DNA of 64,000 nucleotides from an uncultured Candidatus Saccharibacteria bacterium (GCA_965231055.1 OZ246411.1:537875-601874), one strand, 5' to 3'; numbered from the stretch's first letter, positions 2,414 to 64,000 are shown. Numbers and translations are program-made. The notes: generated from the letters alone by a model not told the origin.

Positions 2414-2440
2414 AATATTCAAAAAAAGTAATACAAAACT

Positions 2441-2941: not shown

Positions 2942-2946
2942 ATTAG

Positions 2947-3675: not shown

Positions 3676-4280
3676 TGCCTTCACTAAACCAAAAAATAGA
3701 ATCACTGATTTTTGTAGCAGGAAGACCTGTTAATATTTCAAAACTTGCTTCTTTGTGCAAAATTGATCGCGCAGAAATACTGAAAGAAATAGAAATCTTG
3801 TCTCAAAAATACAAAAAAGATAGTGGTTTGACTTTGATATTTGATGACAATGAAGTTCAGATAGCTACCAACCCAGAGTGCGCGCCAGTTGTGGGGGAGC
3901 TACTGAAAGAAGAAAGAGAGGGTAAATTAAGTAGGGCGGCCATTGAGACATTGGCGATTATTGCTTATAGACAGCCCATAACCAGGCCAGAGATAGATAT
4001 CATTAGAGGTGTAAATAGTTCTATTATGCTTAGGGTTTTATTGTTGAGGGGGCTCGTTGAGCGTAGAAAAAGTGGGCAGGACCAGAGAATGTTTGAGTAT
4101 GTTGTGAGTTTTGATTTCATGAAAATGTTAGGCGTATCAAACAAAAAAGAACTTCCAAATTTTGAGGAATTAAACAAATCACTTGTTGATAAGGGTTTTG
4201 ATAAAGCTCAGCAACAAGCATTGGAAGTTTCAACTGGTTACATCGCAGAAGAGAAAAAAGAAGAAAACAATAATATCTAA
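3675..4280 (+). CDS. scpB: segregation and condensation protein B
   Basis: IESLIFVAGRPV...IAYRQPITRPEIDIIRGV winged-helix ScpB motifs. Start ATG overlaps the scpA stop. Confidence 0.8.
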   Translation: MPSLNQKIESLIFVAGRPVNISKLASLCKIDRAEILKEIEILSQKYKKDSGLTLIFDDNEVQIATNPECAPVVGELLKEEREGKLSRAAIETLAIIAYRQPITRPEIDIIRGVNSSIMLRVLLLRGLVERRKSGQDQRMFEYVVSFDFMKMLGVSNKKELPNFEELNKSLVDKGFDKAQQQALEVSTGYIAEEKKEENNNI

Positions 4281-4282
4281 TT

Positions 4283-5227: not shown

Positions 5228-5288
5228 TTTTTACGGATTTTTGCTGTGTGATTCGAGCCCTGTAACTTGTATAGCAATATAGCTTTTT

Positions 5289-5298
5289 GTGGTATAAT
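5289..5298 (+). promoter_or_regulatory. extended -10 element TGGTATAAT placed 7 nt before the mraY ATG (possible leaderless start)
   Basis: TGnTATAAT at 5290-5298. ATG at 5306. No SD. Confidence 0.4.
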
Positions 5299-5305
5299 AA
5301 AACAT

Positions 5306-17320: not shown

Positions 17321-17459
17321 ATTAGAAGAATTAGAACAAAGATACAAACGTTATTTTCTAATCCCTCTAATACTTTTAACTCAACTAATCCTTCTAATAG
17401 CAATTGTTTACATTTTGTCTTTTTTGTAATAAACTTAGCAAGCAATACTTAAAGTAATT

Positions 17460-40245: not shown

Positions 40246-40455
40246 ATGGCAAATGATGGTATTTCTGATATTGCGCAGGAAGGAACTCGAGGCACGAAGA
40301 TGTATGAGCTTTTATCCGGGATTCAAGCATTTGGTCGTGATCGTTTTTGCGGTTTACCTTTGTTCTTAGGTGAAGAAAGAAGAACTGATCCCGATACGAT
40401 GCCTGCTCAAGACAAATTGCATTTTGCAACATCCCTTCGCCTTTTTGGTGAGTAA
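40246..40455 (+). CDS. small hypothetical protein (69 aa) in a GC-rich island
   Basis: SD AGGAGGG 6 nt upstream of the ATG. A stable stem-loop (40466-40488) lies 10 nt after the stop. No homology recognised. Confidence 0.3.
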   Translation: MANDGISDIAQEGTRGTKMYELLSGIQAFGRDRFCGLPLFLGEERRTDPDTMPAQDKLHFATSLRLFGE

Positions 40456-50570: not shown

Positions 50571-50781
50571 TATCGTCATCCCCGACCTGATCGGGGATCC
50601 AGACGTCATCACGAAGTGCTTCGCAGAGTTACTTTTCATAACTAAAAAGTAACCAAAAGGTTTGTGGGGTGTTCAAAAGTCGCTAGTTGCAAAGATATAA
50701 CACTCCATGACTCTCAAGAGGACGCTCCAACAGTTGAACACCCCAAACCCCATTGATACATGAAATATACTATTCGTTAGT
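50571..50781 (+). repeat. interspersed structured repeat, copy 1 (+ orientation)
   Basis: Shares a roughly 165-210 bp core with 55710-55875 (+) and 59877-60090 (-). Contains the hairpins TCCCCGA-CCTGA-TCGGGGA and GTTACTTTT...AAAAGTAAC, plus a 16-bp bulged inverted repeat GGTTTGTGGGGTGTTCAA...TTGAACACCCCAAACC. Confidence 0.8.
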
Positions 50782-50814
50782 ATCTACAACCCAACACCTA
50801 TTCCCTAAAACAAA

Positions 50815-51924
50815 ATGCTAGAAGAAAAAAACAAAATCACAATTGGAATAGATGCATCTCCAGTAGCGAGAGATTTTATTAGTGGCACTGAAAGATACAC
50901 TAGAGAAATAATAAAAGCGATAAGTGGTATTGATCATCTGCGCGAATACATTTTGTATACCCCCAAAAAACTTCCAGAAGATTTCGTGAGCGAGCTTGGG
51001 GAGAATTTCAATGAAAAAGTAATACCTATGAAGAGAATGTGGACGCAGGGTCGTCTTGCTTTTGAAATGATGTTTGGTGGTCCAGATATGCTTTTTGTGC
51101 CAGCTCATGCTTTACCACTCGTTCACCCCAAAAAAACTATAACTGCGATACATGATGTGGGATTTAAAAAGTATCCAGAAAATTATACCAAGTTTAATTA
51201 TTGGTATTTAGATTTTTCTACGGACTATGCTTTGCGTCGTGCTACCAAAATTATCACTCCAAGCGAAGCTACGAAAAAAGAAATTTTAGAGTTTTATCCA
51301 TTTGCGGATCCTTCCAAAATCGTAGTTATCCCGCTAGGACTAACCAAAATTGCAGATCCAATTCCTCAAAATATAGTGCCCTCGCCATTCATTCTTTATG
51401 TAGGAAGATTTGAGGTTAGGAAAAATATTTTTAGAATACTTGAAGCGTTTGAGAATATTAAACCAAGATTTCCTTCTCTTAAACTAGTGTGCTCGGGCAA
51501 AGTTGGCGTAGGGGGAGAACATTTTATACAAAAAACAAAAAACTCAAAATACTCACAAGATATTATTATTTTTACAAATACCAAAGAGCAGGAACTAGCT
51601 ACTTTGTATAAAAATGCAGAAATGCTAGTTTTCCCTTCGCTGTATGAGGGTTTTGGACTTCCCATATTTGAGGCATTTTCATTTGGACTTCCTGTGCTCA
51701 CTAGCAATATCACGGCTACTGCGGAGGTTGCTGCGGATTCCGCGCTATTGGTAAATCCTCTGAACACGGATGAGATTGCAGGTGGGATAGCTGAATTACT
51801 ATCAAGCAAGAAACTGGCTGATGATTTGAGGCAAAAGGGACTGGAGAGAGTAAAAAATTATACATGGGATAAAAGTGCTACTAAGGTGATTGATGTTTTT
51901 AACGAAGTGCTCAGCGGTCAATAG
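50815..51924 (+). CDS. GT4-family (group 1) glycosyltransferase
   Basis: C-terminal EGFGLPIFEAFSFGLPVLTSN...AEVAADSALLVNP E-x7-E-like donor-binding motif. Confidence 0.75.
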   Translation: MLEEKNKITIGIDASPVARDFISGTERYTREIIKAISGIDHLREYILYTPKKLPEDFVSELGENFNEKVIPMKRMWTQGRLAFEMMFGGPDMLFVPAHALPLVHPKKTITAIHDVGFKKYPENYTKFNYWYLDFSTDYALRRATKIITPSEATKKEILEFYPFADPSKIVVIPLGLTKIADPIPQNIVPSPFILYVGRFEVRKNIFRILEAFENIKPRFPSLKLVCSGKVGVGGEHFIQKTKNSKYSQDIIIFTNTKEQELATLYKNAEMLVFPSLYEGFGLPIFEAFSFGLPVLTSNITATAEVAADSALLVNPLNTDEIAGGIAELLSSKKLADDLRQKGLERVKNYTWDKSATKVIDVFNEVLSGQ

Positions 51925-51984
51925 TCAGTATTCAGCACTTAATTGATTTTCACATATTAGGAGCTTGTGAAAACTGAATACTGA
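51924..51984. repeat. 11-bp inverted repeat TCAGTATTCAG...CTGAATACTGA with a 37-nt loop
   Basis: Perfect inverted repeat between the GT4 gene and holB. No T-tract follows. Confidence 0.4.
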
Positions 51985-52036
51985 TAACTAAATATTCCTT
52001 TGTGTTTGGCACTATTATGTGTTATAATTTTTTATT

Positions 52037-52963
52037 ATGTCTGAACTTGAAGACCACAATAAAAGCGATAAAAAAAGCCAGGAATGGTCTGTTTTTGGGC
52101 ATGATCAAAACAAAGAAAGATTTGATAAAATTATTGAGAGAAATAGTTTTTCACACGCATATATTTTTGAAGGACCCAGTAATATAGGCAAAACTACCTT
52201 CTCAATAGATCTTGCAAACAAAATCATAGGTGACGTACAGATGATGAGTAGATCAATGATGCATATATCTGACGCTACGATAGGGATAGATCAAATACGC
52301 ACAATTGAAAAGAAAATAGCTATCAGGGGTATTCGGGGAGAAAATAGAGTTATCCTGATAAGCAACGCAGACAATATGACTATAGAAGCGCAGAATGCTT
52401 TTCTTAAAACACTAGAAGAACCACAAGATAAAGTGGTGATAATCATGACAGTTTCAAATTCGAGAAAACTTTTGCCAACAATAGTTTCAAGATGTCAAAA
52501 AGTTTGGTTTTCACCTTTCAAGATTAAAAAAGTCAAAAACTACCTCAAAAAATCGGTAGATACCAAGCTTAGCGAGGAATTGAGTGTTTTATCTGGAGGA
52601 GCAATAGGAAAAGCCATAGAACTCGCAGAGGATAAAGAAAAACTCAATGAGCTAAAATCGGTATTACGCATAATGTCGGATACTAAGATAAATAAAATGA
52701 ATTGGGAGGGTGCTAGAGAGATGAACAAGAAAGAAGCGATTGATTTTGTTTCAAAAATTATTCTGATTTTGAGAATTATTTTTCTTACTGATAGGGGTGT
52801 TATAGATAAAAAAGAAGTGGAAGGAGTTTTGCCTAAATCTCTTTTTGAGAAAAATTTAAACAAAACTATTTTCAAAATCAAAATGGCTTCGTTTATCAAA
52901 AAAGCGCTGGAACGAAATGCAAATATTAGACTGAGTTTGGAAAATTTATTTCTATCAATATAA
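52037..52963 (+). CDS. holB: DNA polymerase III delta' subunit
   Basis: FSHAYIFEGPSNIGKTTFSIDLA, LKTLEEPQDKVVIIMTVSN and IVSRCQKVWF clamp-loader AAA+ motifs. Length 308 aa. Confidence 0.7.
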   Translation: MSELEDHNKSDKKSQEWSVFGHDQNKERFDKIIERNSFSHAYIFEGPSNIGKTTFSIDLANKIIGDVQMMSRSMMHISDATIGIDQIRTIEKKIAIRGIRGENRVILISNADNMTIEAQNAFLKTLEEPQDKVVIIMTVSNSRKLLPTIVSRCQKVWFSPFKIKKVKNYLKKSVDTKLSEELSVLSGGAIGKAIELAEDKEKLNELKSVLRIMSDTKINKMNWEGAREMNKKEAIDFVSKIILILRIIFLTDRGVIDKKEVEGVLPKSLFEKNLNKTIFKIKMASFIKKALERNANIRLSLENLFLSI

Positions 52964-52967
52964 AAAA

Positions 52968-53996
52968 ATGAAAAAAATCACATTGGTATTAGCTCTTGTC
53001 TTAATAGTACCGTTTATAGCGGGATTTTCTATTATTCCAGGGTGTGATGGATTTGCAAAAGATGGTGGAATCTATAAAAGCTCTGATATGGGAGAGGGTT
53101 TTGAAGAAATAAATAGATTTGGAGAAAAAAAGAGTCTCTCAACTTACAATGTGAGTGTTCTTAAGATGGATCAGAGTAGTCCAAATATAATTTATGCAGG
53201 AACCACTAGAAAAGGACTTTTTAAAACAGAAGACAGCGGAGAGGTTTGGAGAAATATGCTTTCTGGTGTCTCAGTGAGTGCTGTAGCAATAGATCCAAAA
53301 GATAGCAACAGAATATATGTTTCAGGAGTTGCCGGTTCAAATTCTAGAATTTTTATAAATTCCGAGGGAGGCGAGGGGCCATGGGAAGAGATTTTTCTTC
53401 AAACAGATTCAAAAGAAGAAATCGTCGCTATTCAGATCGATGTCAATAATGAAAATATAGTATATGCCATCTCAGCCGAAGGACATCTGTACAAAAGTTT
53501 GGATAAAGGATCTACTTGGTCATACTTAAGTTCTGTGGAGGCTGCTGTTTCAAAAATGATTTTGAACAAGCACAAAACCAACGAGCTTTTTGCAGCTACA
53601 AAAGGAGGACTCTATGTTTCATCTGATTACGGAGCTAATTGGAAAAAAACTGAATTGGCTAGCAACTCAATAATCAACTCTGTGGTGGTAGACCCAAACT
53701 CTCCCCAAGTAATCTATGCAGTTGCCAAGGATGCCATTTATAAATCTACAAATTCTGGTGTGAGCTTTGATCGTATAAATACATTGATCAAACCCGGTTC
53801 TGTAGAATTTTGGGATTTGGCGGTGGATCCTAGTAACTCATCAAAGATTTACTTTAGCGCAGGGTCATCAGTGCATAGAACTTCAGATGGCGGAGTTTCG
53901 TGGGCAGCAAAACTTATTCCATCTACAAGATCTGTAAAAAATATAGTAGTAGATAATATTGACGGAAGTAATATTTACGTAGGATTATCAAAATAA
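52968..53996 (+). CDS. secreted BNR/Asp-box repeat beta-propeller protein (Ycf48-like)
   Basis: Signal peptide. Six S-x-D-x-G-x-x-W repeats (SSDMGEGF, TEDSGEVW, SLDKGSTW, SSDYGANW, STNSGVSF, TSDGGVSW). Confidence 0.55.
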   Translation: MKKITLVLALVLIVPFIAGFSIIPGCDGFAKDGGIYKSSDMGEGFEEINRFGEKKSLSTYNVSVLKMDQSSPNIIYAGTTRKGLFKTEDSGEVWRNMLSGVSVSAVAIDPKDSNRIYVSGVAGSNSRIFINSEGGEGPWEEIFLQTDSKEEIVAIQIDVNNENIVYAISAEGHLYKSLDKGSTWSYLSSVEAAVSKMILNKHKTNELFAATKGGLYVSSDYGANWKKTELASNSIINSVVVDPNSPQVIYAVAKDAIYKSTNSGVSFDRINTLIKPGSVEFWDLAVDPSNSSKIYFSAGSSVHRTSDGGVSWAAKLIPSTRSVKNIVVDNIDGSNIYVGLSK

Positions 53997-54013
53997 TAAA
54001 TTAAACAATATAT

Positions 54014-54565
54014 ATGTTGGATCAAAAAAAACTAAAAGACGAATTTAAAAAAGCGATAGATTTTTTACAAAAAGATTTGGGAACTATAAAAACAGGCAGA
54101 GCTCACCCTGGACTAGTTGAAGATATCGCTGTGGAAGCTTATGGTTCAAAAATGAGAATAAAAGAATTGGCAACGGTATCAGCTCCTGAGCCAAGAACCA
54201 TAAGGATAGAGCCCTGGGATAAAAGCCAGATTTCCGCGATGGAAAAGGGTCTTATGAGCTCAGACATGGGATTCAATCCTTCAAATGATGGTTCATCAAT
54301 TATTATAAATCTACCCGAGCTAACGGCCGAAAGAAGAGAAGAGGTGGCAAAGCTTGTCGATAAAAAAGCTGAAGAAGCTAAGATTTCAATACGAAAAATC
54401 AGAGAAGAATTTATGAAAAAAATGGATGACGCGAATGATGCAGGTGAACTTTCAGATGATGAGTTCGAAAAAGATAAAAAGGATTTGCAAAAAGCGGTAG
54501 ATGAAAACAATAAAGAAATAGAAGCGTTGAGTGAAAAGAAACAACAAGAAGTAAAACAAATCTAA
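54014..54565 (+). CDS. frr: ribosome recycling factor
   Basis: LGTIKTGRAHPGLVEDIAVEAYGSKMRIKELATVSAPEPRTIRIEPWDK signature. Confidence 0.9.
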   Translation: MLDQKKLKDEFKKAIDFLQKDLGTIKTGRAHPGLVEDIAVEAYGSKMRIKELATVSAPEPRTIRIEPWDKSQISAMEKGLMSSDMGFNPSNDGSSIIINLPELTAERREEVAKLVDKKAEEAKISIRKIREEFMKKMDDANDAGELSDDEFEKDKKDLQKAVDENNKEIEALSEKKQQEVKQI

Positions 54566-54566
54566 T

Positions 54567-55697
54567 ATGATTTTAGTCACTATTATTATTTTTATCGCTG
54601 TCCTTGCTGTGCTTGTGCTGGTTCACGAGCTCGGACATTTTGTGGCAGCAAAAATATTGGGAGTAAAGGTTGAAGAATTTGGTTTTGGGTTCCCTCCTCG
54701 TATCTGGGCGTATAAAAAGGGGGAAACAGAATACTCTATAAACTGGATACCTCTCGGAGGATTTGTGAAGATGCTTGGACAAAGTGATTTTGAGGTGGTG
54801 GATCATGAAACTACTTCCAAAAACAAAAGAAGTTTTACAGCTCAAAAAGCATGGAAAAGAGTGATAATTTTGGTTGCCGGAGTAAGTATGAATTTTATTT
54901 TAGCTGGGGTGATTATGTCTATTGGTTTTGGTGTGGGACTTCCCGCGTCTATCGGAAGTATTATTCCAGACAATGCCAGAGTTAAAGATCCCAAGATTCA
55001 AATTATAGAAGTGGCTTCTGATTCTCCAGCAAGTATGGCGGACATGCGTATCGCAGATGAAATGGTAACAATAAACGGAAAAAGTTTTACTACTGTCGCT
55101 GAACAATCAAATTACATAAAAGAAAATGCAGGAAAAGAGATTGATGTAAAAATCAAGAGAGGGGATGAAGTGATAGATAAAAAAGTTACACCGAGATCGG
55201 TTGCTCCCGAAGGAGAGGGGCTCATGGGAGTGATGCTTTCTCACACCGCGCTAGTATCTTTTCCTTGGTATGAGGCTATATGGAGAGGATTTCAAGGAGC
55301 CGGAATTATGATTTGGGATATTCTAAAAGGTTGGGGCACTATTATCTCTAGACTTTTTGCGGGTGAATCTACCGGAGCTACTATTGCAGGACCTGTGGGG
55401 ATTGCAGTACTTACCGGACAAATGGCGGATTTGGGATTTATTTATCTCATGCAGTTTACGGCACTTTTATCATTGAACTTAGCTATAATCAATATATTGC
55501 CATTTCCAGCGCTTGATGGTGGACATCTGCTGTTTCTTTTGATAGAACGGATGAGGAAGAAAGCTACTGCAAGATACCTAAAAATTCAGAATATTATTCA
55601 GCTTGTAGGGTTTGGAATTATTTTTGCGCTTCTCGCCTTTGTTACATACAAGGATATAGCAAAGATTTGGGACAAAATCATCGGGATTTTTAAATAG
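54567..55697 (+). CDS. rseP: RIP zinc metalloprotease RseP (site-2 protease)
   Basis: HELGHFVAAK HExxH motif in TM1. PDZ region. C-terminal LDGG motif (FPALDGGHL). Confidence 0.8.
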   Translation: MILVTIIIFIAVLAVLVLVHELGHFVAAKILGVKVEEFGFGFPPRIWAYKKGETEYSINWIPLGGFVKMLGQSDFEVVDHETTSKNKRSFTAQKAWKRVIILVAGVSMNFILAGVIMSIGFGVGLPASIGSIIPDNARVKDPKIQIIEVASDSPASMADMRIADEMVTINGKSFTTVAEQSNYIKENAGKEIDVKIKRGDEVIDKKVTPRSVAPEGEGLMGVMLSHTALVSFPWYEAIWRGFQGAGIMIWDILKGWGTIISRLFAGESTGATIAGPVGIAVLTGQMADLGFIYLMQFTALLSLNLAIINILPFPALDGGHLLFLLIERMRKKATARYLKIQNIIQLVGFGIIFALLAFVTYKDIAKIWDKIIGIFK

Positions 55698-55709
55698 AGC
55701 GTCGCCGTT

Positions 55710-55875
55710 GTGCTTCGCAGAGTTACTTTTCATAACTGAAAAGTAACCAAAAGGTTTGTGGGGTGTTCAAAAGTCGCTAGTTGCAAAGATACAACACCCC
55801 GTGATTCTCAGAAGGACGCTCCGACAGTTGAACACCCCAAACCCCATTGATACATGAAATATACTATTCGTTAGT
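55710..55875 (+). repeat. interspersed structured repeat, copy 2 (+ orientation, lacks the 5' TCCCCGA hairpin)
   Basis: Near-identical to copy 1 across GTGCTTCGCAGAGTTACTTTTCATAACT...CATTGATACATGAAATATACTATTCGTTAGT. Confidence 0.8.
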
Positions 55876-55947
55876 TACTAGAGTCTAAAACCTAACCCCT
55901 AATCCTTCTAACTTAACACCTGAAACCTATAACCTAAAACCTAACAT

Positions 55948-57180
55948 ATGAAACTTACAAACCTATTCACGAAAACTAGTAAAGAGGCGCCTAAAGGTGA
56001 AACTACAAAAAACGCCAAGTTTTTGGTGCAGGCAGGTTTTGTAAACAAGCTTATGTCAGGAGTTTATACTTATCTTCCATTGGGACTAAAAACACTTGAT
56101 AAAATTAAAAATATTATAAGAGAAGAAATAAATGCAGTGGGCGGACAAGAAATACTTATGCCAGCGCTTACTCCAAAAGAAAATTGGGTAAAGACCAAGA
56201 GATGGGATGAGATAGATGTACTTTTCAAACTCACCGGTTCTGACAAAAAAGAATTGGCGTTAGGATCTACTCATGAAGAAATAGTTACTCCACTTGTAAA
56301 ACAATACGCCTCTTCATACAAAGACCTTCCTGTAGCTGTCTATCAAATCCAAGACAAATTTAGAGATGAGCCCAGAGCTCGCTCAGGAATGCTACGAGGC
56401 AGAGAATTTTCTATGAAAGATTTGTATTCATTTCATACTGACGAAAAAGATCTTGATCAATATTACGAAAAAGTCGTAGGGGCATATCACAAAATTTTCA
56501 AAAGATTGGGAATAGGTGATATTACACTTCTTACCTATGCTTCGGGTGGAGTATTTTCAAAATATTCACATGAATTTCAGTCCATCATAGATTCGGGTGA
56601 AGATACTGTTTATGTTTGCGATAAATGCAATGTGGCGGTAAACAAAGAAATTTATGATGCCAAAAAGGGTTGTGAGAAATGTGGAAACAAGGAGCTCATA
56701 GAAAAAAGAGCCATAGAAGTGGGAAATGTATTTAAACTTGGAAACAGATTTTCTGAGGCTTTTGATTATAAATTTATAGATAAAGATGGAAAGCAAAAGC
56801 CAGTCGTGATGGGATGCTACGGTATGGGACCAGGGCGAATTATGGGAACTATAGTTGAGCTTTTGGCTGATGAGAGGGGACTTGTGTGGCCAGAAGAGAT
56901 TGCACCTTTTCACATTCATTTGGTAGCAATAGGAAAAGATCCAAAAGTTATGGTAGAAGCCAACGAGCTCTATAAAAAGCTATTAGACAAGAAAATAGAA
57001 GTGCTATTCGATGATAGAGATATTTCAACTGGAGCAAAACTAGCTGACGCTGATCTCATTGGAATTCCACATAGAATAGTGATAAGCGAAAAAACACTTT
57101 CCGCAGGAAAATTTGAGTATAAGAATAGAAGTGAAAAAGAAGTGAAGATGATAAGTGAGGACGAGGTTCTTGGGTTGTAG
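55948..57180 (+). CDS. proS: prolyl-tRNA synthetase lacking the INS editing domain (small Cys4 insertion instead)
   Basis: Class II motifs (FRDEPRARSGMLRGREFSMKD, GCYGMGPGRI). CDKC...CEKC mini-insertion where the INS domain would sit. Total length 410 aa. Confidence 0.85.
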   Translation: MKLTNLFTKTSKEAPKGETTKNAKFLVQAGFVNKLMSGVYTYLPLGLKTLDKIKNIIREEINAVGGQEILMPALTPKENWVKTKRWDEIDVLFKLTGSDKKELALGSTHEEIVTPLVKQYASSYKDLPVAVYQIQDKFRDEPRARSGMLRGREFSMKDLYSFHTDEKDLDQYYEKVVGAYHKIFKRLGIGDITLLTYASGGVFSKYSHEFQSIIDSGEDTVYVCDKCNVAVNKEIYDAKKGCEKCGNKELIEKRAIEVGNVFKLGNRFSEAFDYKFIDKDGKQKPVVMGCYGMGPGRIMGTIVELLADERGLVWPEEIAPFHIHLVAIGKDPKVMVEANELYKKLLDKKIEVLFDDRDISTGAKLADADLIGIPHRIVISEKTLSAGKFEYKNRSEKEVKMISEDEVLGL

Positions 57181-57305
57181 GTGTTAGACTATAAGAATTA
57201 GTGGAGTTAGATGGATTAGAAGTTTTAGACCATAGCTGACTTAGACCCTGAAACGAGTTCGGGGTGACAGTAAGAGTGGGCGTGTCGATAAAGCAAATAG
57301 AACAT

Positions 57306-58352
57306 ATGAAATTTTTTAGAAAATTTTCAAGTAATATTGGTATAGACCTGGGTACTGCAAATACCTTGGTTTATGTTGATGGAAAAGGAATAGTTATAAA
57401 CGAGCCATCAGTCGTCGCCATGAATACAAAAACAGGACAAGTTTTGGCAATAGGAAGTGAGGCCAAACGCATGGTGGGAAAAACTCCTGCTCACATAGTA
57501 GCAACGAGACCTCTCGTAGATGGAGTGATTTCAGATTATGAAGTGACAGAGCAGATGCTCAAATATTTTATAGACAAAGTTCAAAGTTCTCGTTTTGCCT
57601 TGATCTCTAGGCCAATGGTAGTTGTCGGAGTTCCATCGGGTGTTACTGAAGTAGAGAAGCGTGCCGTAGAAGAAGCGACACTAAGCGCTGGAGCTAGAAA
57701 AGTATTTCTCATAGAAGAACCAATGGCAGCAGCAATAGGAGCGAAACTTCCAGTGCAGGATGCTGCGGGAAGCCTTATCGTAGATATTGGTGGAGGTACT
57801 ACCGAAGTAGCTGTTATTTCTCTTGGTGGAATCGTGGTTAGTAAATCTTTGAGAATCGCTGGAGACGAACTCAATCAAGACATTATTGACTATGCCAGGG
57901 AAGAATTCAATCTGCTTTTGGGAGAGCGCACTGCTGAAGAAATCAAACTTGCGATAGGCTCAGCCGTAGAACTAGAGGAGCCTCTTGAGGCACAGATGCG
58001 AGGTCGTGATATCGTCACAGGACTTCCCAAAGAAATTACAATTACAGATGAAGATGTCCGCCAAGCTATGGCGCGATCTATCCGCACTCTCGTCACAAAT
58101 ATCAAAGCTACAGTTGAGGAAACTCCTCCGGAGCTAGTTGCTGATATCATGAAGCGAGGAATAGTGCTAGCTGGGGGAGGAGCACTTCTTCGAGGTCTAG
58201 ACAAACTCGTTGCCGAGCACACCCAAATGCCAGTACATATCGCAAACGATCCTTTGACCGCGGTGGTCAGAGGCACCGGTATTGTTCTCGAAGACATTGA
58301 ATCTTTGAAAGATGTATTAGTCGCCACAGACTTCGGTAAACCGATAAAATAG
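57306..58352 (+). CDS. mreB: rod shape-determining actin homolog MreB (paralog 2)
   Basis: IGIDLGTANTLVYV, IVDIGGGTTEVAVISLGG and LAGGGALLRGLDKL motifs. Start moved to the ATG at 57306. Followed by mreC, mreD and PBP2. Confidence 0.85.
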   Translation: MKFFRKFSSNIGIDLGTANTLVYVDGKGIVINEPSVVAMNTKTGQVLAIGSEAKRMVGKTPAHIVATRPLVDGVISDYEVTEQMLKYFIDKVQSSRFALISRPMVVVGVPSGVTEVEKRAVEEATLSAGARKVFLIEEPMAAAIGAKLPVQDAAGSLIVDIGGGTTEVAVISLGGIVVSKSLRIAGDELNQDIIDYAREEFNLLLGERTAEEIKLAIGSAVELEEPLEAQMRGRDIVTGLPKEITITDEDVRQAMARSIRTLVTNIKATVEETPPELVADIMKRGIVLAGGGALLRGLDKLVAEHTQMPVHIANDPLTAVVRGTGIVLEDIESLKDVLVATDFGKPIK

Positions 58353-58357
58353 TTTTA

Positions 58358-59167
58358 ATGCGACGAAATAGCAATAAAACAACCTATATACTCGTCTCAA
58401 TCCTAGTAGCGCTGATATTGGCTACTCTGGGGGCTTTTGGCGTGCTAGAGCCCGTAAAAGGGGCCTTTTTGGCTGTAGGCGGGGGGATAGTGAGTGTGGT
58501 GAGGTGGCCATTTGATAGGGTTTATGATTTTGTGGTGGTGATAGGATCTATAGGACATCTCAAGACTGATAAGGTGAGCTTGATGGATGAGGTGGAGTCA
58601 CTCAAAGCGCAAAATGCAAAACTAACTGAAGAAAACAAAGAGCTTGGTGATCTTCGCGAGCAGTTTGATTTTAGACAAACTTTTAAATCTGAAACAATAG
58701 AGGCAAATGTGGTGGGGCGCACCGCCGATGAGTCTAGACAAATTATAATTATAGGAAGAGGAAGCAGTGGAGATGTGGAAGAAAATGATGCCGTGCTGAC
58801 TTCTTCCGGGTCTCTTGTTGGAGTTGTAAAAAAAGTTTATCCGATGACTGCGGAAGTAGTACTTATCACTGATCCAGGAAGTACGATAAATGCAAAGATT
58901 CAGAAAATAGAAAATGGACTTGGACTTGTAAAGGGGGAGCATGGAGTAAGTTTGACAATGGAAGCGATAGATAAATCTGCTGAAGTAAAAGATGGACAAG
59001 TGGTCGTGACTTCGGGACTTGATGGGATGCTTCCAAGCGGATTGGTAGTTGGTACGCTTTCACATATTGTTGACGCAGAAAGTGATTTGTTTAAGTCCGC
59101 GCGAGTGAATCCCATAGTTTCATTTCGCAACCTCACAAGAGTTTTTATTTTGAAAAAAGTCAATTAG
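58358..59167 (+). CDS. mreC: rod shape-determining protein MreC
   Basis: N-terminal TM helix. Coiled coil (LKAQNAKLTEENKELGDLRE). C-terminal beta domain. Sits between mreB and mreD. Confidence 0.75.
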   Translation: MRRNSNKTTYILVSILVALILATLGAFGVLEPVKGAFLAVGGGIVSVVRWPFDRVYDFVVVIGSIGHLKTDKVSLMDEVESLKAQNAKLTEENKELGDLREQFDFRQTFKSETIEANVVGRTADESRQIIIIGRGSSGDVEENDAVLTSSGSLVGVVKKVYPMTAEVVLITDPGSTINAKIQKIENGLGLVKGEHGVSLTMEAIDKSAEVKDGQVVVTSGLDGMLPSGLVVGTLSHIVDAESDLFKSARVNPIVSFRNLTRVFILKKVN

Positions 59168-59247
59168 GTTCTAGTGGATCTAGAAGTATTAGATGAACTA
59201 TGAGTTAACCGGTTCTTCTAATGCCTCAAGTGCTTCTAAAACCTAAC

Positions 59248-59835
59248 ATGCTAAATATATTTTCCTCACTATTCTCTTCAAAAACAAGACAGAGGATTGG
59301 TTCTTCTGCTAAGGAGAGTAGGTGGGGGCTTTACATTTTTATAGCTATACTCGTGGTGCTTCAAATAATCGTAGCGCCTTATTTTGAATTCAAGGGAGTT
59401 GGGTTTAATTTGATTTTGGTATTTTTATTGGTTTGGGTTTTTTATTCGGAAGGCAAAGAAGTCACACCTCTTTTATTTGCTGGAATATTACTTGATTTGT
59501 TTAGTGCTGAAAGATTTGGTATCTGGACGCTTGCCTTGGTTCTTGCAGTTTTGGTTTATCTTTTCTTGGGACTTTTTATTTCGAATGTAGGAACGCTGAT
59601 TTCAAAAACGATAATTGTTTTGGTGCTTGCTGGTTTTTGCGTATTTGTCCCTTTTTTCCTTCAGCAACTTTTTATGCTAATTAGTAAAGAAACTCCGATT
59701 GTGTTTGGCGGAACTATGGTTTGGATTTTGATTTTTGAGATGCTTTTCAATCTATTGGTTTATGTTATCCTTGTATTACCCATGACAAGATTTTTGGACC
59801 GCTTGAGTCCAAAGCGCGTAGTACTTTATAAATAG
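59248..59835 (+). CDS. mreD: rod shape-determining protein MreD (polytopic membrane protein)
   Basis: Four or five TM helices. Position between mreC and PBP2. Start chosen at the ATG preceded by AAAACCTAACAT, the same context as proS. The ORF track starts at 59221. Confidence 0.55.
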   Translation: MLNIFSSLFSSKTRQRIGSSAKESRWGLYIFIAILVVLQIIVAPYFEFKGVGFNLILVFLLVWVFYSEGKEVTPLLFAGILLDLFSAERFGIWTLALVLAVLVYLFLGLFISNVGTLISKTIIVLVLAGFCVFVPFFLQQLFMLISKETPIVFGGTMVWILIFEMLFNLLVYVILVLPMTRFLDRLSPKRVVLYK

Positions 59836-59876
59836 ACGAGCGAAGTGTTAGGTTCTAAGTTTTAGAGGTGTCAGGA

Positions 59877-60090
59877 ACTAACGAACATAATATTTCATGT
59901 AGCAATGGGGTTTGGGGTGTTCAACTGTTGGAGCGTCCCTCGATGAGTCGCCAGATGCTCTATTGTTTCGATTAGCGACTTTTGAACACCCCACAAACCT
60001 TTTGGTTACTTTTCAGTTATGAAAAGTAACTCTGCGAAGCACTTCGTGACTACGTCTGGATCCCCGATCAAGGTCGGGGATGACGACGGG
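59877..60090 (-). repeat. interspersed structured repeat, copy 3 (- orientation)
   Basis: Reverse complement matches copy 1, including the TCCCCGACC(T)TGATCGGGGA hairpin and the GGTTTGTGGGGTGTTCAA/TTGAACACCCCAAACC arms. The central ~40 nt have diverged. Confidence 0.8.
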
Positions 60091-60135
60091 ATGTGCGGAA
60101 TTACAAAAAAACCTAACACCTATAACCTACAAATA

Positions 60136-62097
60136 ATGGCATTATTTGAATATACAAAAGATGATAGAGAAACCAGCAAGCTTGGAATATCCAGGAAGAA
60201 TTTGGATTGGGAGGAATCTCTGATATCTGGCGCCAAATCAAGTGATGGTGAATCTATGGATGTTGTAAGTAAATTTAAAAAAGGCAGAATGATGTGGTTT
60301 GTGGTGGCTGTGGTTTTAATCATGGGAATGCTTGTTTTTAAGACTGCATATATGCAATTTGTGGAGGGAAAAAATCTCAGAATAGCCGCAGAAGAAAATA
60401 GAATCCGAACTATTCCAGAGCTTGCACCTAGAGGTGTGATCAAGGATAGAAATGGAGAAGTGATCGCTCAAAACTCACCAAGCTTCAATTTGGTTTATGT
60501 GCCTTCAGATATTTCAAGTGACGAAGCAGAGATGGATAAATCGCTTACCAAAATTTCTGAAGTAGCGGGGGTTTCTCTTGATGAGCTTAAAAAAACTATT
60601 GAAGAAGCGCCTGACAATTCATTTGAAGCTTACATATTGATTGCAGATCTTCCCAAAGAATCTGCGCTAAAACTTATTTCTATAAAAGATTCGCTCGGAG
60701 GTTTTTATGTACAAGATGTGGCTATAAGAGAATACACTCAAAAAGAAATTTTTGCGCATGTGCTTGGTTACACTGGACTTATTTCAAAAGAAGAATATGA
60801 GGAAAAAGCAAATGGAGATATAAAATATTATTTCAATGACTATATCGGAAAATCCGGAATAGAAAAAACTTATGAAAATTTCTTGCGAGGAGAGCCGGGT
60901 ATGCGACAAATAGAAGTTGACTCAATGGGGCGAGAAGAAAAAGAGCTTGCCTATAAAGAGCCAGAAAGTGGATCAGATGTGGTGCTGGGTATAGATGCAA
61001 AACTCCAGAAATTTTTATATGAAAGACTTTCTGAAGTATCCAAAGAATCCGGGAGCGGAAAAGCATCTGCTGTGGCGATGAATCCCAAAACCGGAGAAAT
61101 ACTTTCTATGGTTTCTGTTCCATCGTATGACAATAATCTTTTTTCAAAAACCAAAGACAAAGAATACGCAAAACTTTTTACTGACGAAACGAGACCTCTT
61201 TTAAATAGAGCGATCACCGGAGTCTATCCTCCTGGATCCACCGTGAAGCCCGGAGTGGCTGTCGCAGCCCTTGAAGAGGATGTTATTACTCCAAATACCA
61301 CGATTATGGACAAGGGAGAGATTTCCGTTGCACATAAATATGATCCAAGTATCGTTTATAAATTTGTGGGATACGAGAGATCTGGTTTGGGCTTGGTTGA
61401 TGTTTATACATATATATCAAAATCTTCTGACATTTTTTCATATTATATTGGTGGAGGATATGGTGATTTTAAGGGGCTTGGACTTACAAAACTCAAAAAT
61501 TGGTATGAACTTTTTGGATTTGGAAGTGCCCTAGGAATAGATATAGAAGGAGAGGCTTCTGGTCTGATTCCAGACGAAGAATGGAAGCAGAAAGTAAAAG
61601 GAGAAGCTTGGTATCTGGGAGATTTGTATCACCTTTCAATAGGTCAAGGAGACATGTTAGCAACTCCGTTGCAGCTTGTTTCTTATATCTCAACTATTGC
61701 GAATGGAGGGAGTTTGGTAAAACCGCATCTTGTTAAATCTATTGTAAATCTTGAAACTCAAAAAACTACTACAATAGAAACAGAAGTGATACGCGAAAAT
61801 TTTGCTAGTAGTGAAAGCATCTCGGTGGTTAGGGAGGCGATGAGACGAACTGTGACTGATGGTTCGGGAAGAGCTTTAAATACTTTGCCCTTTACATCTG
61901 CTGGAAAAACAGGAACAGCGCAGTATGTAGAAGATGGAGATAAAAAAGAGCATGCTTGGTATGTGAGCTTTGCTCCATATGAAGATCCTGAAATAGCACT
62001 TGTTATACTTGTGGAAGGTGGAGGCGAAGGTTTTAGAACAGCAGTTCCAGTTGCCAAAGACGCACTTGAACATTATTTTAATGAAAAGCAGGACTAG
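60136..62097 (+). CDS. mrdA: penicillin-binding protein 2 (elongasome transpeptidase)
   Basis: TM helix, then SxxK (GSTVKP), SxN and KTG (AGKTGTAQ) motifs. The ORF-track start 60019 lies inside repeat copy 3, so the ATG at 60136 is preferred. Confidence 0.85.
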   Translation: MALFEYTKDDRETSKLGISRKNLDWEESLISGAKSSDGESMDVVSKFKKGRMMWFVVAVVLIMGMLVFKTAYMQFVEGKNLRIAAEENRIRTIPELAPRGVIKDRNGEVIAQNSPSFNLVYVPSDISSDEAEMDKSLTKISEVAGVSLDELKKTIEEAPDNSFEAYILIADLPKESALKLISIKDSLGGFYVQDVAIREYTQKEIFAHVLGYTGLISKEEYEEKANGDIKYYFNDYIGKSGIEKTYENFLRGEPGMRQIEVDSMGREEKELAYKEPESGSDVVLGIDAKLQKFLYERLSEVSKESGSGKASAVAMNPKTGEILSMVSVPSYDNNLFSKTKDKEYAKLFTDETRPLLNRAITGVYPPGSTVKPGVAVAALEEDVITPNTTIMDKGEISVAHKYDPSIVYKFVGYERSGLGLVDVYTYISKSSDIFSYYIGGGYGDFKGLGLTKLKNWYELFGFGSALGIDIEGEASGLIPDEEWKQKVKGEAWYLGDLYHLSIGQGDMLATPLQLVSYISTIANGGSLVKPHLVKSIVNLETQKTTTIETEVIRENFASSESISVVREAMRRTVTDGSGRALNTLPFTSAGKTGTAQYVEDGDKKEHAWYVSFAPYEDPEIALVILVEGGGEGFRTAVPVAKDALEHYFNEKQD

Positions 62098-62816: not shown

Positions 62817-63056
62817 ATGAATCACAAAAGCGCTCTAAATCTAAGGGCGCTTTTTTGTTAGACGTAGGGCTATGTGATGGGGATTAGGTCCTAGTGAACC
62901 TGGGAGTATTAGAGGGATTAGAAAAATCTATTAACTCATAGTTCATCTAAATCCTCTAATACTTCCAAAACCTAGCACCTGATAACTAAAACCTAATCCC
63001 TCTGATTCTTCTAGATCCTCTGAATAGTTGTCTAGATAGCTAATATCTGGTAAAAT

Positions 63057-64000
63057 ATGGCCATGCAAAATTTAAAGGAAAAGCCTTCGGAAAACTACAT
63101 AATTAAGGACAGAAAAGCCAAACTTGGTAAACTAAAAGAGCTTGGTTTGGATCCTTATCCAGCAGTAACTTCGCGAAATACTTCGTGCAAGTCTTTTTTG
63201 GATAACTTTGAAAAACTAAAGGGCAAAGAGGTTATCGTTGCTGGAAGAATCAGGGCAAAAAGAGGCCATGGCAAAATTTCGTTTATTGATATTCAGGATG
63301 AAGGTGGAAATATTCAGATTATCGCGATGGCAAACAATATGGGAAAAAACTTTGATTTGGTTAAGCTTTTGGATATGGGAGACTTCTTGGAAGTCTCCGG
63401 AAAGGTGATTTTGAGCAAAACCAACGCGAAAAGTATTGAAGCGAGTGCGTTTAAAATCCTTTCAAAGTCAATTAGACCTCTTCCAGAAAAACGAAAGGGG
63501 TTGTCAGATATAGAAGAGAGATACAGAAGACGCTATTTGGATTTGCTTTCTCATCCAGAGATCGCAGAACTCTTTAGGAAAAAATCCAAATTCATTTCTA
63601 GTATTAGAGAATTTTTGAGCTCAGAAGGATTTTTGGAAGTGGAGACTCCTATACTCGAAGCTATTCCTGGTGGAGCCGATGCAAATCCTTTCAAAACCAA
63701 GCACGATGTGCTTGATATGAATTTTTATTTGCGTATTTCTCCAGAACTTCATCTAAAGCGATTGATAGTGGGTGGATACGACAAGGTTTTTGAAATAGGA
63801 AGATTGTTTCGTAATGAGGGAGTGAGCACTCAGCATCTTCAGGAATTTACTAATATGGAATTTTACTGGGCATATAGCGAGTACGAAGAGCTCATGAAAT
63901 TTACTGAAAAGTTTTTTGAAAAAATACTGATGCAGACTTTTGGTACACTTGATTTTTCATGGAAAGGTAAGAAGTTTTCATTCAAATCACCTATAAAAAG
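63057..64000 (+). CDS. lysS: lysyl-tRNA synthetase class II (3' end outside window)
   Basis: N-terminal OB anticodon-binding domain (VIVAGRIRAKRGHGKISFIDIQDEGGNIQI), then ERYRRRYLDL and class II motif 1. ORF open to the window end. Confidence 0.9.
   Translation, partial: MAMQNLKEKPSENYIIKDRKAKLGKLKELGLDPYPAVTSRNTSCKSFLDNFEKLKGKEVIVAGRIRAKRGHGKISFIDIQDEGGNIQIIAMANNMGKNFDLVKLLDMGDFLEVSGKVILSKTNAKSIEASAFKILSKSIRPLPEKRKGLSDIEERYRRRYLDLLSHPEIAELFRKKSKFISSIREFLSSEGFLEVETPILEAIPGGADANPFKTKHDVLDMNFYLRISPELHLKRLIVGGYDKVFEIGRLFRNEGVSTQHLQEFTNMEFYWAYSEYEELMKFTEKFFEKILMQTFGTLDFSWKGKKFSFKSPIK

What the first reader, a model, noticed from the sequence alone, without database searches (positions are those of the whole stretch)
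50571..60090. Highly structured interspersed repeat (~170-215 bp) in three copies within 10 kb, flanking cell-shape genes
Seen in sequence:
- Copies sit at 50571-50781 (+), 55710-55875 (+) and 59877-60090 (-).
- They share GTGCTTCGCAGAGTTACTTTTCATAACTnAAAAGTAACCAAAAGGTTTGTGGGGTGTTCAAAAGTCGCTA...GGACGCTCCnACAGTTGAACACCCCAAACCCCATTGnTACATGAAATAT...TTCGTTAGT.
- Each copy has a 9-bp hairpin (GTTACTTTT/AAAAGTAAC).
- Each has a 16-bp bulged long-range inverted repeat (GGTTTGtGGGGTGTTCAA / TTGAACACCCCAAACC) enclosing a ~70-nt variable loop.
- Copies 1 and 3 additionally have TCCCCGA-loop-TCGGGGA.
- All copies are intergenic: after mreB1, after rseP/before proS-mreB2, and between mreD and PBP2.

Inference:
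- They sit at operon boundaries, so an attenuator/terminator role is possible. Otherwise this is either a family of small structured RNAs or a MITE-like element.
- Such repeats are unexpected in a streamlined genome and may have mediated rearrangement of the mreB loci.
- The reverse strand of the element begins with an ATG inside the hairpin (MKSNSAKH...). The reading frames diverge between copies, so a conserved peptide is unlikely.
Basis: seen in the sequence. Interest (0 to 1): 0.75.

Follow-up and report, generated by a model that had tools for sequence, protein, structure and literature searches.

The report
Mosaic hairpin repeat in mre cluster
Three copies of a small non-coding, strongly hairpin-forming DNA repeat were inserted between cell-shape genes in one streamlined (CPR) bacterium. 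It most likely belongs to the ordinary class of mosaic, mobile-like intergenic repeats and is probably not a new regulatory RNA.

Summary
Three copies of a 166-nt core sit at 50616-50781(+), 55710-55875(+) and 59877-60042(-). They are the only copies in 72.8 kb.

- **Structure:** the stems never vary. Substitutions concentrate in the 57-nt centre enclosed by the long inverted repeat. There is no covariation.
- **No RNA signals:** there is no Rfam hit, no promoter and no terminator. One copy is antisense to its operon.
- **Insertions:** two relatives (45-50% PBP2 identity) have the same gene order, murA-mreB1-...-mreD-PBP2-greA-lysS. Their junctions at all three sites are tiny or overlapping. 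The elements are therefore lineage-specific insertions and did not rearrange the mreB loci.
- **Extra hairpin:** the 5' hairpin of copies 1 and 3 matches the published Ssn-related motif (NTS/dRS3-type hairpin, target of GIY-YIG ssDNA nucleases). It recurs, identical for 26 nt, in IMG/VR viral contigs.
- **Surroundings:** each copy lies in degenerate (CTAAAAC)n tracts and other short repeats.

Best reading: a non-autonomous mosaic intergenic DNA repeat, like Neisseria NIMEs, enterobacterial BIMEs or pneumococcal BOX elements. It is a new member of a known kind.

The core has no relative in any collection searched. The rest of the 844-kb source genome could not be reached, so the total copy number and any partner enzyme are unknown.

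The parts
50574..50602 (+). Copy 1, 5' module: SRM/NTS-type hairpin CGTCATCCCCGACCTGATCGGGGATCCAG
   Evidence: It matches the published SRM pattern. The 7-nt direct repeat CGTCATC lies at 50574-50580 and 50604-50610. The hairpin is identical for 26 nt to hairpins in viral loci L127 and L128.
50616..50781 (+). Copy 1, 166-nt core. P1 hairpin 50628-50653. P2 arms 50659-50676 and 50734-50749, enclosing the 57-nt variable centre 50677-50733. P3 hairpin 50760-50777.
50782..50814 (+). Copy 1 tail: A/C-rich leader (AACCCAACAC...CCCTAAAAC) running to the GT4 start codon
55704..55875 (+). Copy 2: core without the SRM hairpin, starting 7 nt after the rseP stop codon. The shared core is 55710-55875. P1 55722-55747. 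P2 arms 55753-55770 and 55828-55843. Centre 55771-55827. P3 55854-55871.
55885..55944 (+). Copy 2 tail: degenerate heptamer array (CTAAAAC) x 8.6, running to the proS start codon
   Evidence: TRF; blastn-short matches to other intergenic regions.
59877..60042 (-). Copy 3 core, inverted relative to all neighbouring genes. P1 60005-60030. P2 arms 59982-59999 and 59909-59924. Centre 59925-59981. P3 59881-59898.
60056..60085 (-). Copy 3, 5' module: SRM/NTS-type hairpin CGTCATCCCCGACCTTGATCGGGGATCCAG
59836..59876 (+). G/T-rich arm after the mreD stop codon. It contains GTGTTAGGTT, which is complementary to 60108-60117.
   Evidence: The fold of 59833-60138 pairs the two arms around copy 3.
60098..60135 (+). 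A/C-rich module (AAAAACCTAACACCTATAACCTA) immediately upstream of the likely true PBP2 start at 60136
   Evidence: TRF period 7. It is 91% identical over 23 nt to the leader at L124 9839-9861, given as positions 69897-69919 of the window-plus-L124 sequence.

Best explanation
The element is a non-autonomous, DNA-level mosaic intergenic repeat. It is the same kind of thing as Neisseria NIMEs (repeat units bounded by dRS3/NTS hairpins), enterobacterial BIMEs and pneumococcal BOX elements.

A full unit has four parts:
- an optional 29-30-nt SRM/NTS-type hairpin;
- a 13-nt linker;
- a 166-nt core with three hairpins (P1, P2, P3), in which only the 57-nt centre inside P2 is free to vary;
- an A/C-rich (CTAAAAC)n-like tail.

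Shown:
- The copies were added to three formerly compact gene junctions in this lineage.
- They occur in both orientations.
- They carry no gene.

Inferred: the units spread, or were shuffled, through their hairpins as single-stranded DNA. The agent would be a trans-acting enzyme encoded elsewhere in the 844-kb genome. Candidates are an Ssn-type GIY-YIG nuclease, an IS110/Piv-type recombinase or a RAYT-like transposase. Selection for sequences needed in cis keeps the stems and linkers invariant, while the exposed centre accumulates mostly transition mutations.

Also inferred: effects on the host are by-products. The element makes structured inserts in the mre-operon mRNAs, separates genes that overlap in relatives, and supplies a spurious start codon for PBP2.
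For: 1. Insertions. In relatives L126 and L125 the same gene order holds. The junctions are 43 nt (mreB1-GT4), 4 nt (rseP-proS) and overlapping (mreD-PBP2). Here they are 273, 250 and 300 nt. nhmmer finds no copy in those loci.
2. Orientation does not matter. Copy 3 is inverted while all genes are on the + strand.
3. Modular structure. The SRM hairpin is present in copies 1 and 3 and absent in copy 2. In copy 1 it is bracketed by the direct repeat CGTCATC.
4. The hairpin matches the published SRM degenerate motif, which is used to define NTS-like targets of Ssn ssDNA nucleases (PMC11893778).
   - The motif hits the window exactly twice, against 0.07 expected.
   - The GTC before the palindrome and the C after it, which the paper reports as critical, are both present.
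   - The same stem occurs in 14 stretches from about 10 IMG/VR contigs, often in tandem strings of GTCAT-hairpin-ATCC units.
5. The substitution pattern fits cis-required ends plus a free interior.
   - Copy 1 vs copy 2: 7 of 57 centre positions differ against 1 of 109 elsewhere (p=0.0025). All 8 changes are transitions.
   - Copy 1 vs copy 3: 19 of 57 against 5 of 109 (p=1.5e-6).
   - Four of the five non-centre differences lie in a linker or the P3 loop. The fifth breaks the loop-closing pair of P1 in copy 1.
6. No signal of an RNA gene or a regulator.
   - No Rfam match.
   - No promoter or terminator above chance.
   - 40 of 44 pairs invariant, and none changed on both sides.
   - Single-stranded DNA folds with z = -5.4, at least as well as RNA.
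7. The surrounding intergenic DNA is itself a mosaic of short repeats in both orientations.
Against: - The core has no terminal inverted repeats and no target-site duplications. Only copy 3 has a 10-bp inverted repeat in its flanks.
- No transposase, recombinase or GIY-YIG gene was found in the 72.8 kb examined.
- Only three copies are known, all within 10 kb. This could instead point to a local function tied to the mre/PBP2 genes.
- The centre is 33% diverged in copy 3 while the stems and unpaired linkers are identical. If the centre is neutral, this implies long-term purifying selection on the rest, which a host function would also explain.
- G-U pairs in P3 and in the centre helix exist only on the element's own strand. 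This is a weak hint of RNA-level (or top-strand ssDNA) folding.
- The relatives used as 'empty sites' are distant (45-50% PBP2 identity), so exact insertion boundaries cannot be read.
Confidence: 0.6

Rival explanations
1. Cis-acting RNA structure taken over by the host. The element is transcribed within the mre-region operons. Its stable multi-hairpin fold acts as an mRNA processing or stabilising element, or as a non-canonical attenuator, setting the relative expression of mreB1, proS-mreBCD and PBP2.
For: - The predicted RNA folds are significantly stable.
- Copies 1 and 2 are in the sense orientation at operon junctions.
- The G-U pairs are strand-specific: U-G in P3, and G-C to G-U changes in the centre helix.
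- Stems and linkers are invariant although the centre has diverged.
- All three copies cluster at cell-shape genes, and none occurs in the other roughly 63 kb examined.
Against: - Copy 3 is antisense to its operon, so the mRNA would carry the complement.
- Relatives with the same operons lack the element.
- No terminator-like hairpin followed by a T-run was found.
- No covariation, with only three sequences.
- No Rfam family matches.
Confidence: 0.15
2. A family of trans-acting or guide-like non-coding RNAs. An invariant scaffold (P1, P2, P3) presents a hypervariable 57-nt specificity loop, by analogy with IS110 bridge RNAs, TnpB/IscB omega RNAs or multicopy sRNAs. The protein partner would be encoded elsewhere.
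For: - There is a sharp contrast between the invariant scaffold and the variable centre, which has a constant length of 57 nt.
- The size (about 170-215 nt) and multi-hairpin architecture resemble such RNAs.
Against: - No conserved promoter or terminator.
- No recombinase or nuclease gene adjacent or within 72.8 kb.
- The centres show no above-chance identity or complementarity to flanking or other window DNA. The best matches are 11-12 nt, about what chance gives.
- No Rfam hit, including to models of known guide RNAs.
- The centre differences are mostly transitions, as expected from drift.
Confidence: 0.07
3. A host-domesticated DNA-level site. The inverted SRM hairpins of copies 1 and 3 bracket the 9.3-kb block from GT4 to mreD. 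They would act, as NTS-gene-NTS arrangements do in Neisseria, as Ssn nuclease sites that limit integration of incoming single-stranded DNA or promote local recombination.
For: - SRM hairpins lie at 50574-50602(+) and 60056-60085(-) in inverted orientation.
- The Ssn paper reports that NTS repeats cluster around particular genes and that SsnA modulates integration of transforming DNA carrying NTS.
Against: - No ssn homologue was seen in 72.8 kb.
- Competence and Ssn activity are unknown for this organism.
- Copy 2 lacks the hairpin.
- This idea does not explain the 166-nt core.
- Only two SRMs were seen, whereas the genomes that paper links most strongly to ssn carry more than 200.
Confidence: 0.1

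Closest known systems
Neisseria intergenic mosaic elements (NIMEs: RS repeat units bounded by dRS3/NTS hairpins)
   Same: - An intergenic mosaic of repeat units joined to a GTCAT-palindrome-ATCC hairpin.
- Copies occur in both orientations and cluster near particular genes.
- No coding capacity.
- The hairpin fits the published SRM/NTS definition.
   Different: - The host is a CPR/Patescibacteria bacterium.
- Only one hairpin per unit, on one side only.
- The 166-nt unit is itself highly structured.
- Three copies are known, compared with hundreds in Neisseria.
- No Ssn or Piv/IS110 gene has been identified.
- The description of NIME architecture beyond the dRS3/NTS facts in PMC11893778 comes from my own knowledge.
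Ssn-related motif (SRM) / Neisseria Transformation Sequence hairpins, targets of GIY-YIG ssDNA nucleases (PMC11893778)
   Same: - The 5' module of copies 1 and 3 matches HGTCWYN(0-2)YYVSBRHN(0-5)WNVSBRGN(0-2)RNCYNB.
- It has the upstream GTC and the C after the palindrome.
- It folds as a 7-8-bp hairpin.
   Different: - Stem sequence is CCCCGA, not TTCCCGC.
- No adjacent ssn gene.
- Cleavage is untested.
- This applies only to the 29-30-nt module, not to the core.
BIME/REP and REPIN elements; pneumococcal BOX elements
   Same: - Short extragenic palindromic modules combined in variable mosaics.
- They are co-transcribed with neighbouring genes, highly structured, and present or absent between lineages.
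   Different: - No sequence similarity.
- No RAYT gene seen.
- The core is longer and has a branched fold.
- This comparison rests on general knowledge, not on a test run here.
Bacterial MITEs (for example Correia/CREE, RUP, Nezha)
   Same: - Under 300 bp and non-coding.
- Several near-identical copies in intergenic DNA.
- Sites are empty in relatives.
- Conserved inverted repeats surround a variable interior.
   Different: - The conserved inverted repeat (P2) is internal, not terminal.
- No terminal inverted repeats or target-site duplications at the unit ends.
- No parental IS is known.
IS110 bridge RNA / TnpB-IscB omega RNAs
   Same: - About 150-200-nt multi-hairpin scaffolds.
- Variable segments sit inside conserved stems.
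   Different: - No adjacent recombinase or nuclease gene.
- No promoter.
- No detectable target complementarity.
- No Rfam match.

Membership tests
SRM/NTS hairpin (Ssn target) | Matches the published degenerate SRM sequence | tested here: met
   The regex from PMC11893778 hits 50574-50602(+) and 60056-60085(-), and nothing else in 64 kb. Shuffles give a mean of 0.07.
SRM/NTS hairpin (Ssn target) | Oriented hairpin with conserved upstream GTC and a C directly after the palindrome | tested here: met
   The sequence reads CGTC-ATCCCCGA...TCGGGGAT-CC. The paper states the role of these bases. The hairpin is predicted in both the ssDNA and RNA folds.
SRM/NTS hairpin (Ssn target) | Spatial association with a cd10448 GIY-YIG ssn gene | tested here: not met
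   A six-frame GIY...YIG motif scan of the 72.8 kb gave no credible match. Pfam scans of window genes gave none. The rest of the genome could not be reached, so the feature is not met locally and remains open genome-wide.
SRM/NTS hairpin (Ssn target) | Cleavage of the single-stranded hairpin by the cognate nuclease | not testable with these tools
   Needs biochemistry.
MITE | Terminal inverted repeats at the unit ends | tested here: not met
   The core ends (GTGCTTCGCA... and ...TTCGTTAGT) and the SRM end are not complementary. A 10-bp inverted repeat, GTGTTAGGTT/AACCTAACAC, flanks copy 3 only.
MITE | Target-site duplication | tested here: not met
   No direct repeat brackets any copy.
MITE | Small, non-coding and multicopy, with empty sites in related genomes | tested here: met
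   There are three copies of 172-214 nt. All reading frames are interrupted. All three junctions are compact in L125 and L126.
MITE | A related autonomous IS supplying the transposase | not testable with these tools
   Only 72.8 kb of the 844-kb genome was accessible, and it holds no transposase.
Any Rfam RNA family | Covariance-model match | tested here: not met
   No hit at the gathering threshold in the whole window. At E<=10 there was only a chance snoRNA hit.
Intrinsic terminator / attenuator | G+C-rich hairpin followed by a T-run in the sense orientation | tested here: not met
   No terminator-like site at any of the three copies. For contrast, a classical terminator follows greA at 62826-62856.
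Independent sRNA gene | Own promoter and terminator conserved among copies | tested here: not met
   No shared promoter-like site on the element strand.
Structured functional RNA (generic) | Compensatory base changes supporting the helices | tested here: inconclusive
   40 of 44 pairs are invariant, and none is changed on both sides. Two G-C/G-U switches occur in the centre helix. Only three sequences were available.
Integron attC site | R''/R' boxes (RYYYAAC...GTTRRRY), cassettes all in one orientation | tested here: not met
   Reading the P2 arms shows no such boxes. Copy 3 is inverted. The intervening genes are syntenic housekeeping genes. The attC consensus is taken from my own knowledge.

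The most novel reading that the evidence does not exclude
The 166-nt core is not junk. It would be a new functional module, at the RNA or single-stranded-DNA level. Its invariant three-hairpin scaffold would present a fast-evolving 57-nt specificity loop, and it would be mobilised or processed together with an Ssn-type hairpin. That would be a previously undescribed hairpin-nuclease- or recombinase-associated programmable element in a CPR bacterium. The scaffold/centre contrast and the lack of any homologue in every collection searched leave this reading open.
Probability: 0.07. Interest if true: 0.7.

Novelty: new member of a known kind. Interest (0 to 1): 0.3.

Why it matters
CPR/Patescibacteria genomes are usually described as streamlined and poor in repeats. 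This locus shows otherwise for one of them.

- About 250-300 nt of mosaic repeat DNA was pushed into three junctions where relatives have overlapping or tightly spaced genes. That separates genes that overlap in the relatives.
- The locus places an SRM/NTS-type hairpin in a CPR genome. That hairpin class was only linked to Ssn single-strand nucleases in 2025. The near-exact identity to hairpins in viral contigs hints at horizontal spread, or at a shared enzyme specificity.
- There are practical consequences. The repeat breaks short-read assemblies at each copy. It also created a wrong start codon in the deposited PBP2 annotation.

It does not appear to be a new regulatory RNA class.

Tried and rejected
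1. **GTDB genome scan.** The pattern GGGGTGTTCAA-N45-75-TTGAACACCCC is palindromic. It was swamped by an unrelated high-G+C Gemmataceae/Fimbriiglobus repeat family, plus single palindromes in Hymenobacter and Marinobacter.
   - Their centres are not similar to ours, so the shared 11-nt arms are treated as coincidence.
2. **JGI metagenome scan** with GTGGGGTGTTCAAAAGTCGC. It gave two chance hits in unrelated high-G+C contigs.
3. **IMG/VR scans** with five core k-mers gave nothing. blastn of the core against GenBank phages and PLSDB plasmids gave nothing.
4. **Looking for other copies through mis-called ORFs.**
   - A chimeric six-frame peptide query gave no hit at E<=10.
   - phmmer of the 39-aa element-derived PBP2 extension against 1.84 billion representatives returned only unrelated repetitive proteins.
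5. **Walking to the ends of the Logan contigs or into the NCBI contig.** Five look-ups returned 'not on record'. The rest of the genome stayed out of reach.
6. **Guide-RNA idea.** The centres have no above-chance matches in 72.8 kb.
7. **Small peptide.** A GTG-started 30-codon frame, VGCSKVA...DAPTVEHPKPH, is open in all three copies. It has no ribosome-binding context. Four of its seven copy 1/copy 2 codon differences change the amino acid. An open 12-codon variable stretch is expected by chance about half the time. Rejected as weak.
8. **Segmental duplication with mreB.** Rejected, because the copies do not sit in equivalent positions relative to mreB1 and mreB2, and relatives have both mreB genes without the repeat.
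9. **IS200/IS605-type PATE.** The two end hairpins are dissimilar, so this was rejected. attC was also rejected because the consensus boxes are absent.
10. **GIY-YIG genes next to the viral SRM hairpins.** None was found.
11. **The 40.17-40.6 kb gap.** It looked non-coding but contains a small ORF with a strong Shine-Dalgarno sequence, and it has no Rfam match.

Full report
**1. Observation**

The three copies are present as described. Two conserved blocks of 25-27 nt each occur exactly three times in the 64-kb window, against zero in shuffles. A profile built from the copies finds 50572-50781(+), 55704-55875(+) and 59877-60089(-). It finds nothing else in the window plus 8.8 kb of downstream sequence recovered from a Logan contig.

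All three copies contain:
- the 9-11-bp P1 hairpin;
- the bulged long inverted repeat P2 (18-nt and 16-nt arms, enclosing exactly 57 nt);
- a 5-bp P3 hairpin.

The TCCCCGA/TCGGGGA hairpin occurs in copies 1 and 3 only. Predicted folding is better than shuffled controls on either strand, both as RNA and as single-stranded DNA.

Pfam confirms the neighbours: mreB1 | GT4; rseP | proS; mreD | PBP2. All are on the + strand.

Independent Logan assemblies break at each copy. The contigs run 54.8 kb, then copy 1, 4,988 bp, copy 2, 4,074 bp, copy 3, then 73.5 kb. The repeat is therefore in the reads and is not an assembly artefact. The long flanking contigs probably hold no further copy.

**2. The organism and the empty sites**

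The PBP2 protein matches itself on an NCBI contig of 843,892 bp. Its next-best relatives are only 50% identical and carry Patescibacteria or Doudnabacteria names. No close relative is available.

Two relatives could be fetched. L126 has the identical gene order murA-mreB1-GT4-holB-BNR-frr-rseP-proS-mreB2-mreC-mreD-PBP2-(folD)-greA-lysS.

| Junction | L126 | This window |
|---|---|---|
| mreB1-GT4 | 43 nt | 273 nt |
| rseP-proS | 4 nt | 250 nt |
| mreD-PBP2 | 4-nt overlap | 300 nt |

L125 also has overlapping mreC-mreD-PBP2 junctions. Neither locus contains the element.

Two conclusions follow. The three copies, together with their A/C-rich tails, are DNA added in this lineage. The two-mreB arrangement predates them, so the suggestion that the repeat rearranged the mreB loci is not supported.

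**3. Anatomy**

A full unit (copies 1 and 3) has these parts, in order:
- a 29-30-nt hairpin, CGTCATCCCCGACC(T)TGATCGGGGATCCAG;
- a 13-nt linker that begins again with GTCATC or GTAGTC;
- the 166-nt core, GTGCTTCGCA...TTCGTTAGT;
- an A/C-rich tail containing AACC[CT]AAC[AC]C.

Copy 2 lacks the hairpin and starts 7 nt after the rseP stop codon.

In copy 1 the hairpin is bracketed by the direct repeat CGTCATC. This looks like a nested or tandemly added module.

There are no terminal inverted repeats or target-site duplications at the unit ends. Only copy 3 has a 10-bp inverted repeat in its flanks, GTGTTAGGTT/AACCTAACAC, and this pair closes the whole region in the minimum-energy fold.

**4. The hairpin is a known, cosmopolitan module**

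The 23-nt hairpin core occurs exactly in two IMG/VR contigs. The same stem with any loop occurs in 14 stretches from about 10 viral contigs. It often appears in tandem strings of different hairpins that are all framed GTCAT-stem-loop-stem-ATCC.

A literature search on this frame led to the 2025 description of the Ssn nucleases (PMC11893778). That paper:
- defines the Neisseria Transformation Sequence, CGTCATTCCCGCGMAVGCGGGAATCYRG, which encompasses dRS3;
- defines a degenerate Ssn-related motif (SRM);
- shows that SsnA cleaves the hairpin only as single-stranded DNA and in one orientation;
- notes the similarity to IS200/IS605-REP/BIME systems.

The published SRM expression hits this window exactly twice, at the two hairpins, against 0.07 expected. 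The upstream GTC and the C after the palindrome, reported as critical, are both present.

No GIY-YIG gene was found in the 72.8 kb examined, nor next to the viral hairpins. Membership therefore rests on sequence only. The enzyme link is inferred.

**5. The core**

The core has no Rfam match. No promoter or terminator stands above chance at any copy. Nothing similar was found in IMG/VR (five k-mers), JGI metagenomes (one 20-mer), GenBank phages, PLSDB plasmids or protein space. The GTDB scan was wasted on a palindromic pattern and is uninformative.

With three sequences there is no covariation. Of 44 pairs, 40 never vary and none changes on both sides.

The substitution pattern is informative:

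| Comparison | Centre (57 nt) | Rest of core (109 nt) | Fisher p | Transitions |
|---|---|---|---|---|
| Copy 1 vs copy 2 | 7 | 1 | 0.0025 | 8 of 8 |
| Copy 1 vs copy 3 | 19 | 5 | 1.5e-6 | 15 of 24 |

Four of the five non-centre differences between copies 1 and 3 lie in a linker or the P3 loop. The fifth breaks the loop-closing pair of P1 in copy 1. The centre keeps a constant length. A 6-bp helix in it (AGUCGC / GYGAYU) is kept through G-C to G-U changes.

So the centre is homologous but evolves much faster, while the stems and even the unpaired linkers are frozen. This is what is expected if the frozen parts are needed in cis, as with the ends of mobile elements or sites recognised by a protein. 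It would also fit a functional scaffold.

The centres show no above-chance identity or complementarity to anything in 72.8 kb.

**6. The surroundings are a mosaic**

- The tail after copy 2 is a degenerate heptamer array, (CTAAAAC) x 8.6. The PBP2 leader is another such array.
- The same A/C-rich modules, and their G/T-rich complements, recur in both orientations at about 57.2, 59.2, 59.85, 62.2 and 62.9 kb of the window. They also recur at about L124 7830-7855 and 9765-9880.
- A related CTAAT-type module lies at about 17.36 kb.
- Some of these modules form long imperfect palindromes.
- A second repeat family, TTAGATGAACTATGAGTTAA..., links 59189-59227 and 62912-62950 in inverted orientation.

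The structured element is therefore one module in a patchwork of short repeats that fills the expanded junctions of this region.

**7. Interpretation**

The best-supported reading (confidence 0.6) is a non-autonomous, DNA-level mosaic intergenic repeat of the NIME/BIME/BOX kind. It has been inserted or shuffled at hairpins by an enzyme not encoded nearby.

- Shown: insertion relative to relatives, modularity, independence of orientation, absence of RNA-gene signals, and SRM identity of the hairpin.
- Inferred: the single-stranded-DNA mechanism and the identity of the enzyme.

Rival readings:
- a cis-acting mRNA structure taken over by the host (0.15);
- a host-domesticated Ssn site pair (0.10);
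- a guide-like RNA with a variable loop (0.07).

**8. Novelty and interest**

The kind is known. The core sequence is new, and finding an SRM-type hairpin in a CPR genome is a modest extension. Interest is low to moderate (0.3).

The main open point is the scaffold/centre contrast. It can be resolved by searching the complete 844-kb genome, which these tools could not reach.

Noticed in passing
window 60019-60135: The deposited PBP2 protein (P0001, 692 aa) starts at an ATG inside copy 3, in the loop of its P1 hairpin. Homologues are mostly about 615-665 aa and cover 88-99% of the 653-aa version that starts at 60136. The first 39 residues are therefore almost certainly a mis-annotation created by the repeat.
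   Followed up: partly
window 55885-55944, 60108-60129, 59236-59249, 50788-50811; L124 9839-9890: Degenerate heptamer tracts (CTAAAAC/CCTAACA) lie immediately upstream of the start codons of proS, PBP2, mreD, GT4 and a Glycos_transf_4 gene. Their G/T-rich complements lie after the upstream stop codons. Relatives have no spacer at these junctions, so these tracts may act as new leaders after operon genes were pushed apart.
   Followed up: partly
window 59189-59227 and 62912-62950; 62905-62925 and 17354-17374: A second small repeat family, TTAGATGAACTATGAGTTAA...TTCTAAT, is 87% identical over 39 nt in inverted orientation. A separate 21/21 match, AGTATTAGAGGGATTAGAAAA, links the greA-lysS spacer to an intergenic region at 17.36 kb.
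   Followed up: partly
window 62880-63000: A long imperfect palindrome with GGGATTAGG...CCTAATCCC arms follows the greA terminator. Folding the spacer 62817-63068 gives z = -6.2. A classical intrinsic terminator lies at 62826-62856.
   Followed up: no
L127, L128 and L129-L140 (IMG/VR viral contigs): Intergenic strings of different hairpins share the frame GTCAT-stem-loop-stem-ATCC. Examples are GTCATTCCTGCGAAGGCAGGAATC and GTCTTACCGGCGAAGGCCGGTATCCAG. In L127 and L128 there are 6 and 9 per 8-9 kb, all on the strand opposite to the genes. No GIY-YIG ORF was found nearby.
   Followed up: partly
L002-L119 (Gemmataceae/Fimbriiglobus MAGs), e.g. L003 4520-4650: A very abundant high-G+C palindromic repeat has the form CCCCTCTCCATGAATGGAGAGGGGGTGTTCAA...TTGAACACCCC...CATGGAGAGGGGG. 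It is unrelated to the finding apart from the 11-nt arms.
   Followed up: no
L051 1722-1850, L083, L091 (Marinobacter): A 27-bp perfect palindrome, GAGAGGGCGGGAAGGGGTGTTCAAAAA / TTTTTGAACACCCCTTCCCGCCCTCTC, encloses a 54-nt centre. It is conserved in three Marinobacter genomes. It shares GGGGTGTTCAAAA with the P2 arm, but the centres are not similar.
   Followed up: partly
window, gene starts throughout (e.g. 5306, 47621, 52037) and 40246-40455: Most genes lack a Shine-Dalgarno sequence. Several have a TATAAT-like box only 5-15 nt before the ATG, which suggests leaderless or very short leaders. By contrast, a 69-aa ORF at 40246-40455 has a strong AGGAGGG 8 nt upstream, its own promoter-like site and a terminator-like hairpin.
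   Followed up: no
window 1568-6397: Four proteins from the first 6.4 kb of the window are not on record in the assembly index. By coordinates, the 54.8-kb Logan contig should cover them, and all four proteins tested from 49-63 kb are on record. This may reflect strain differences or a structural difference at the left end.
   Followed up: no
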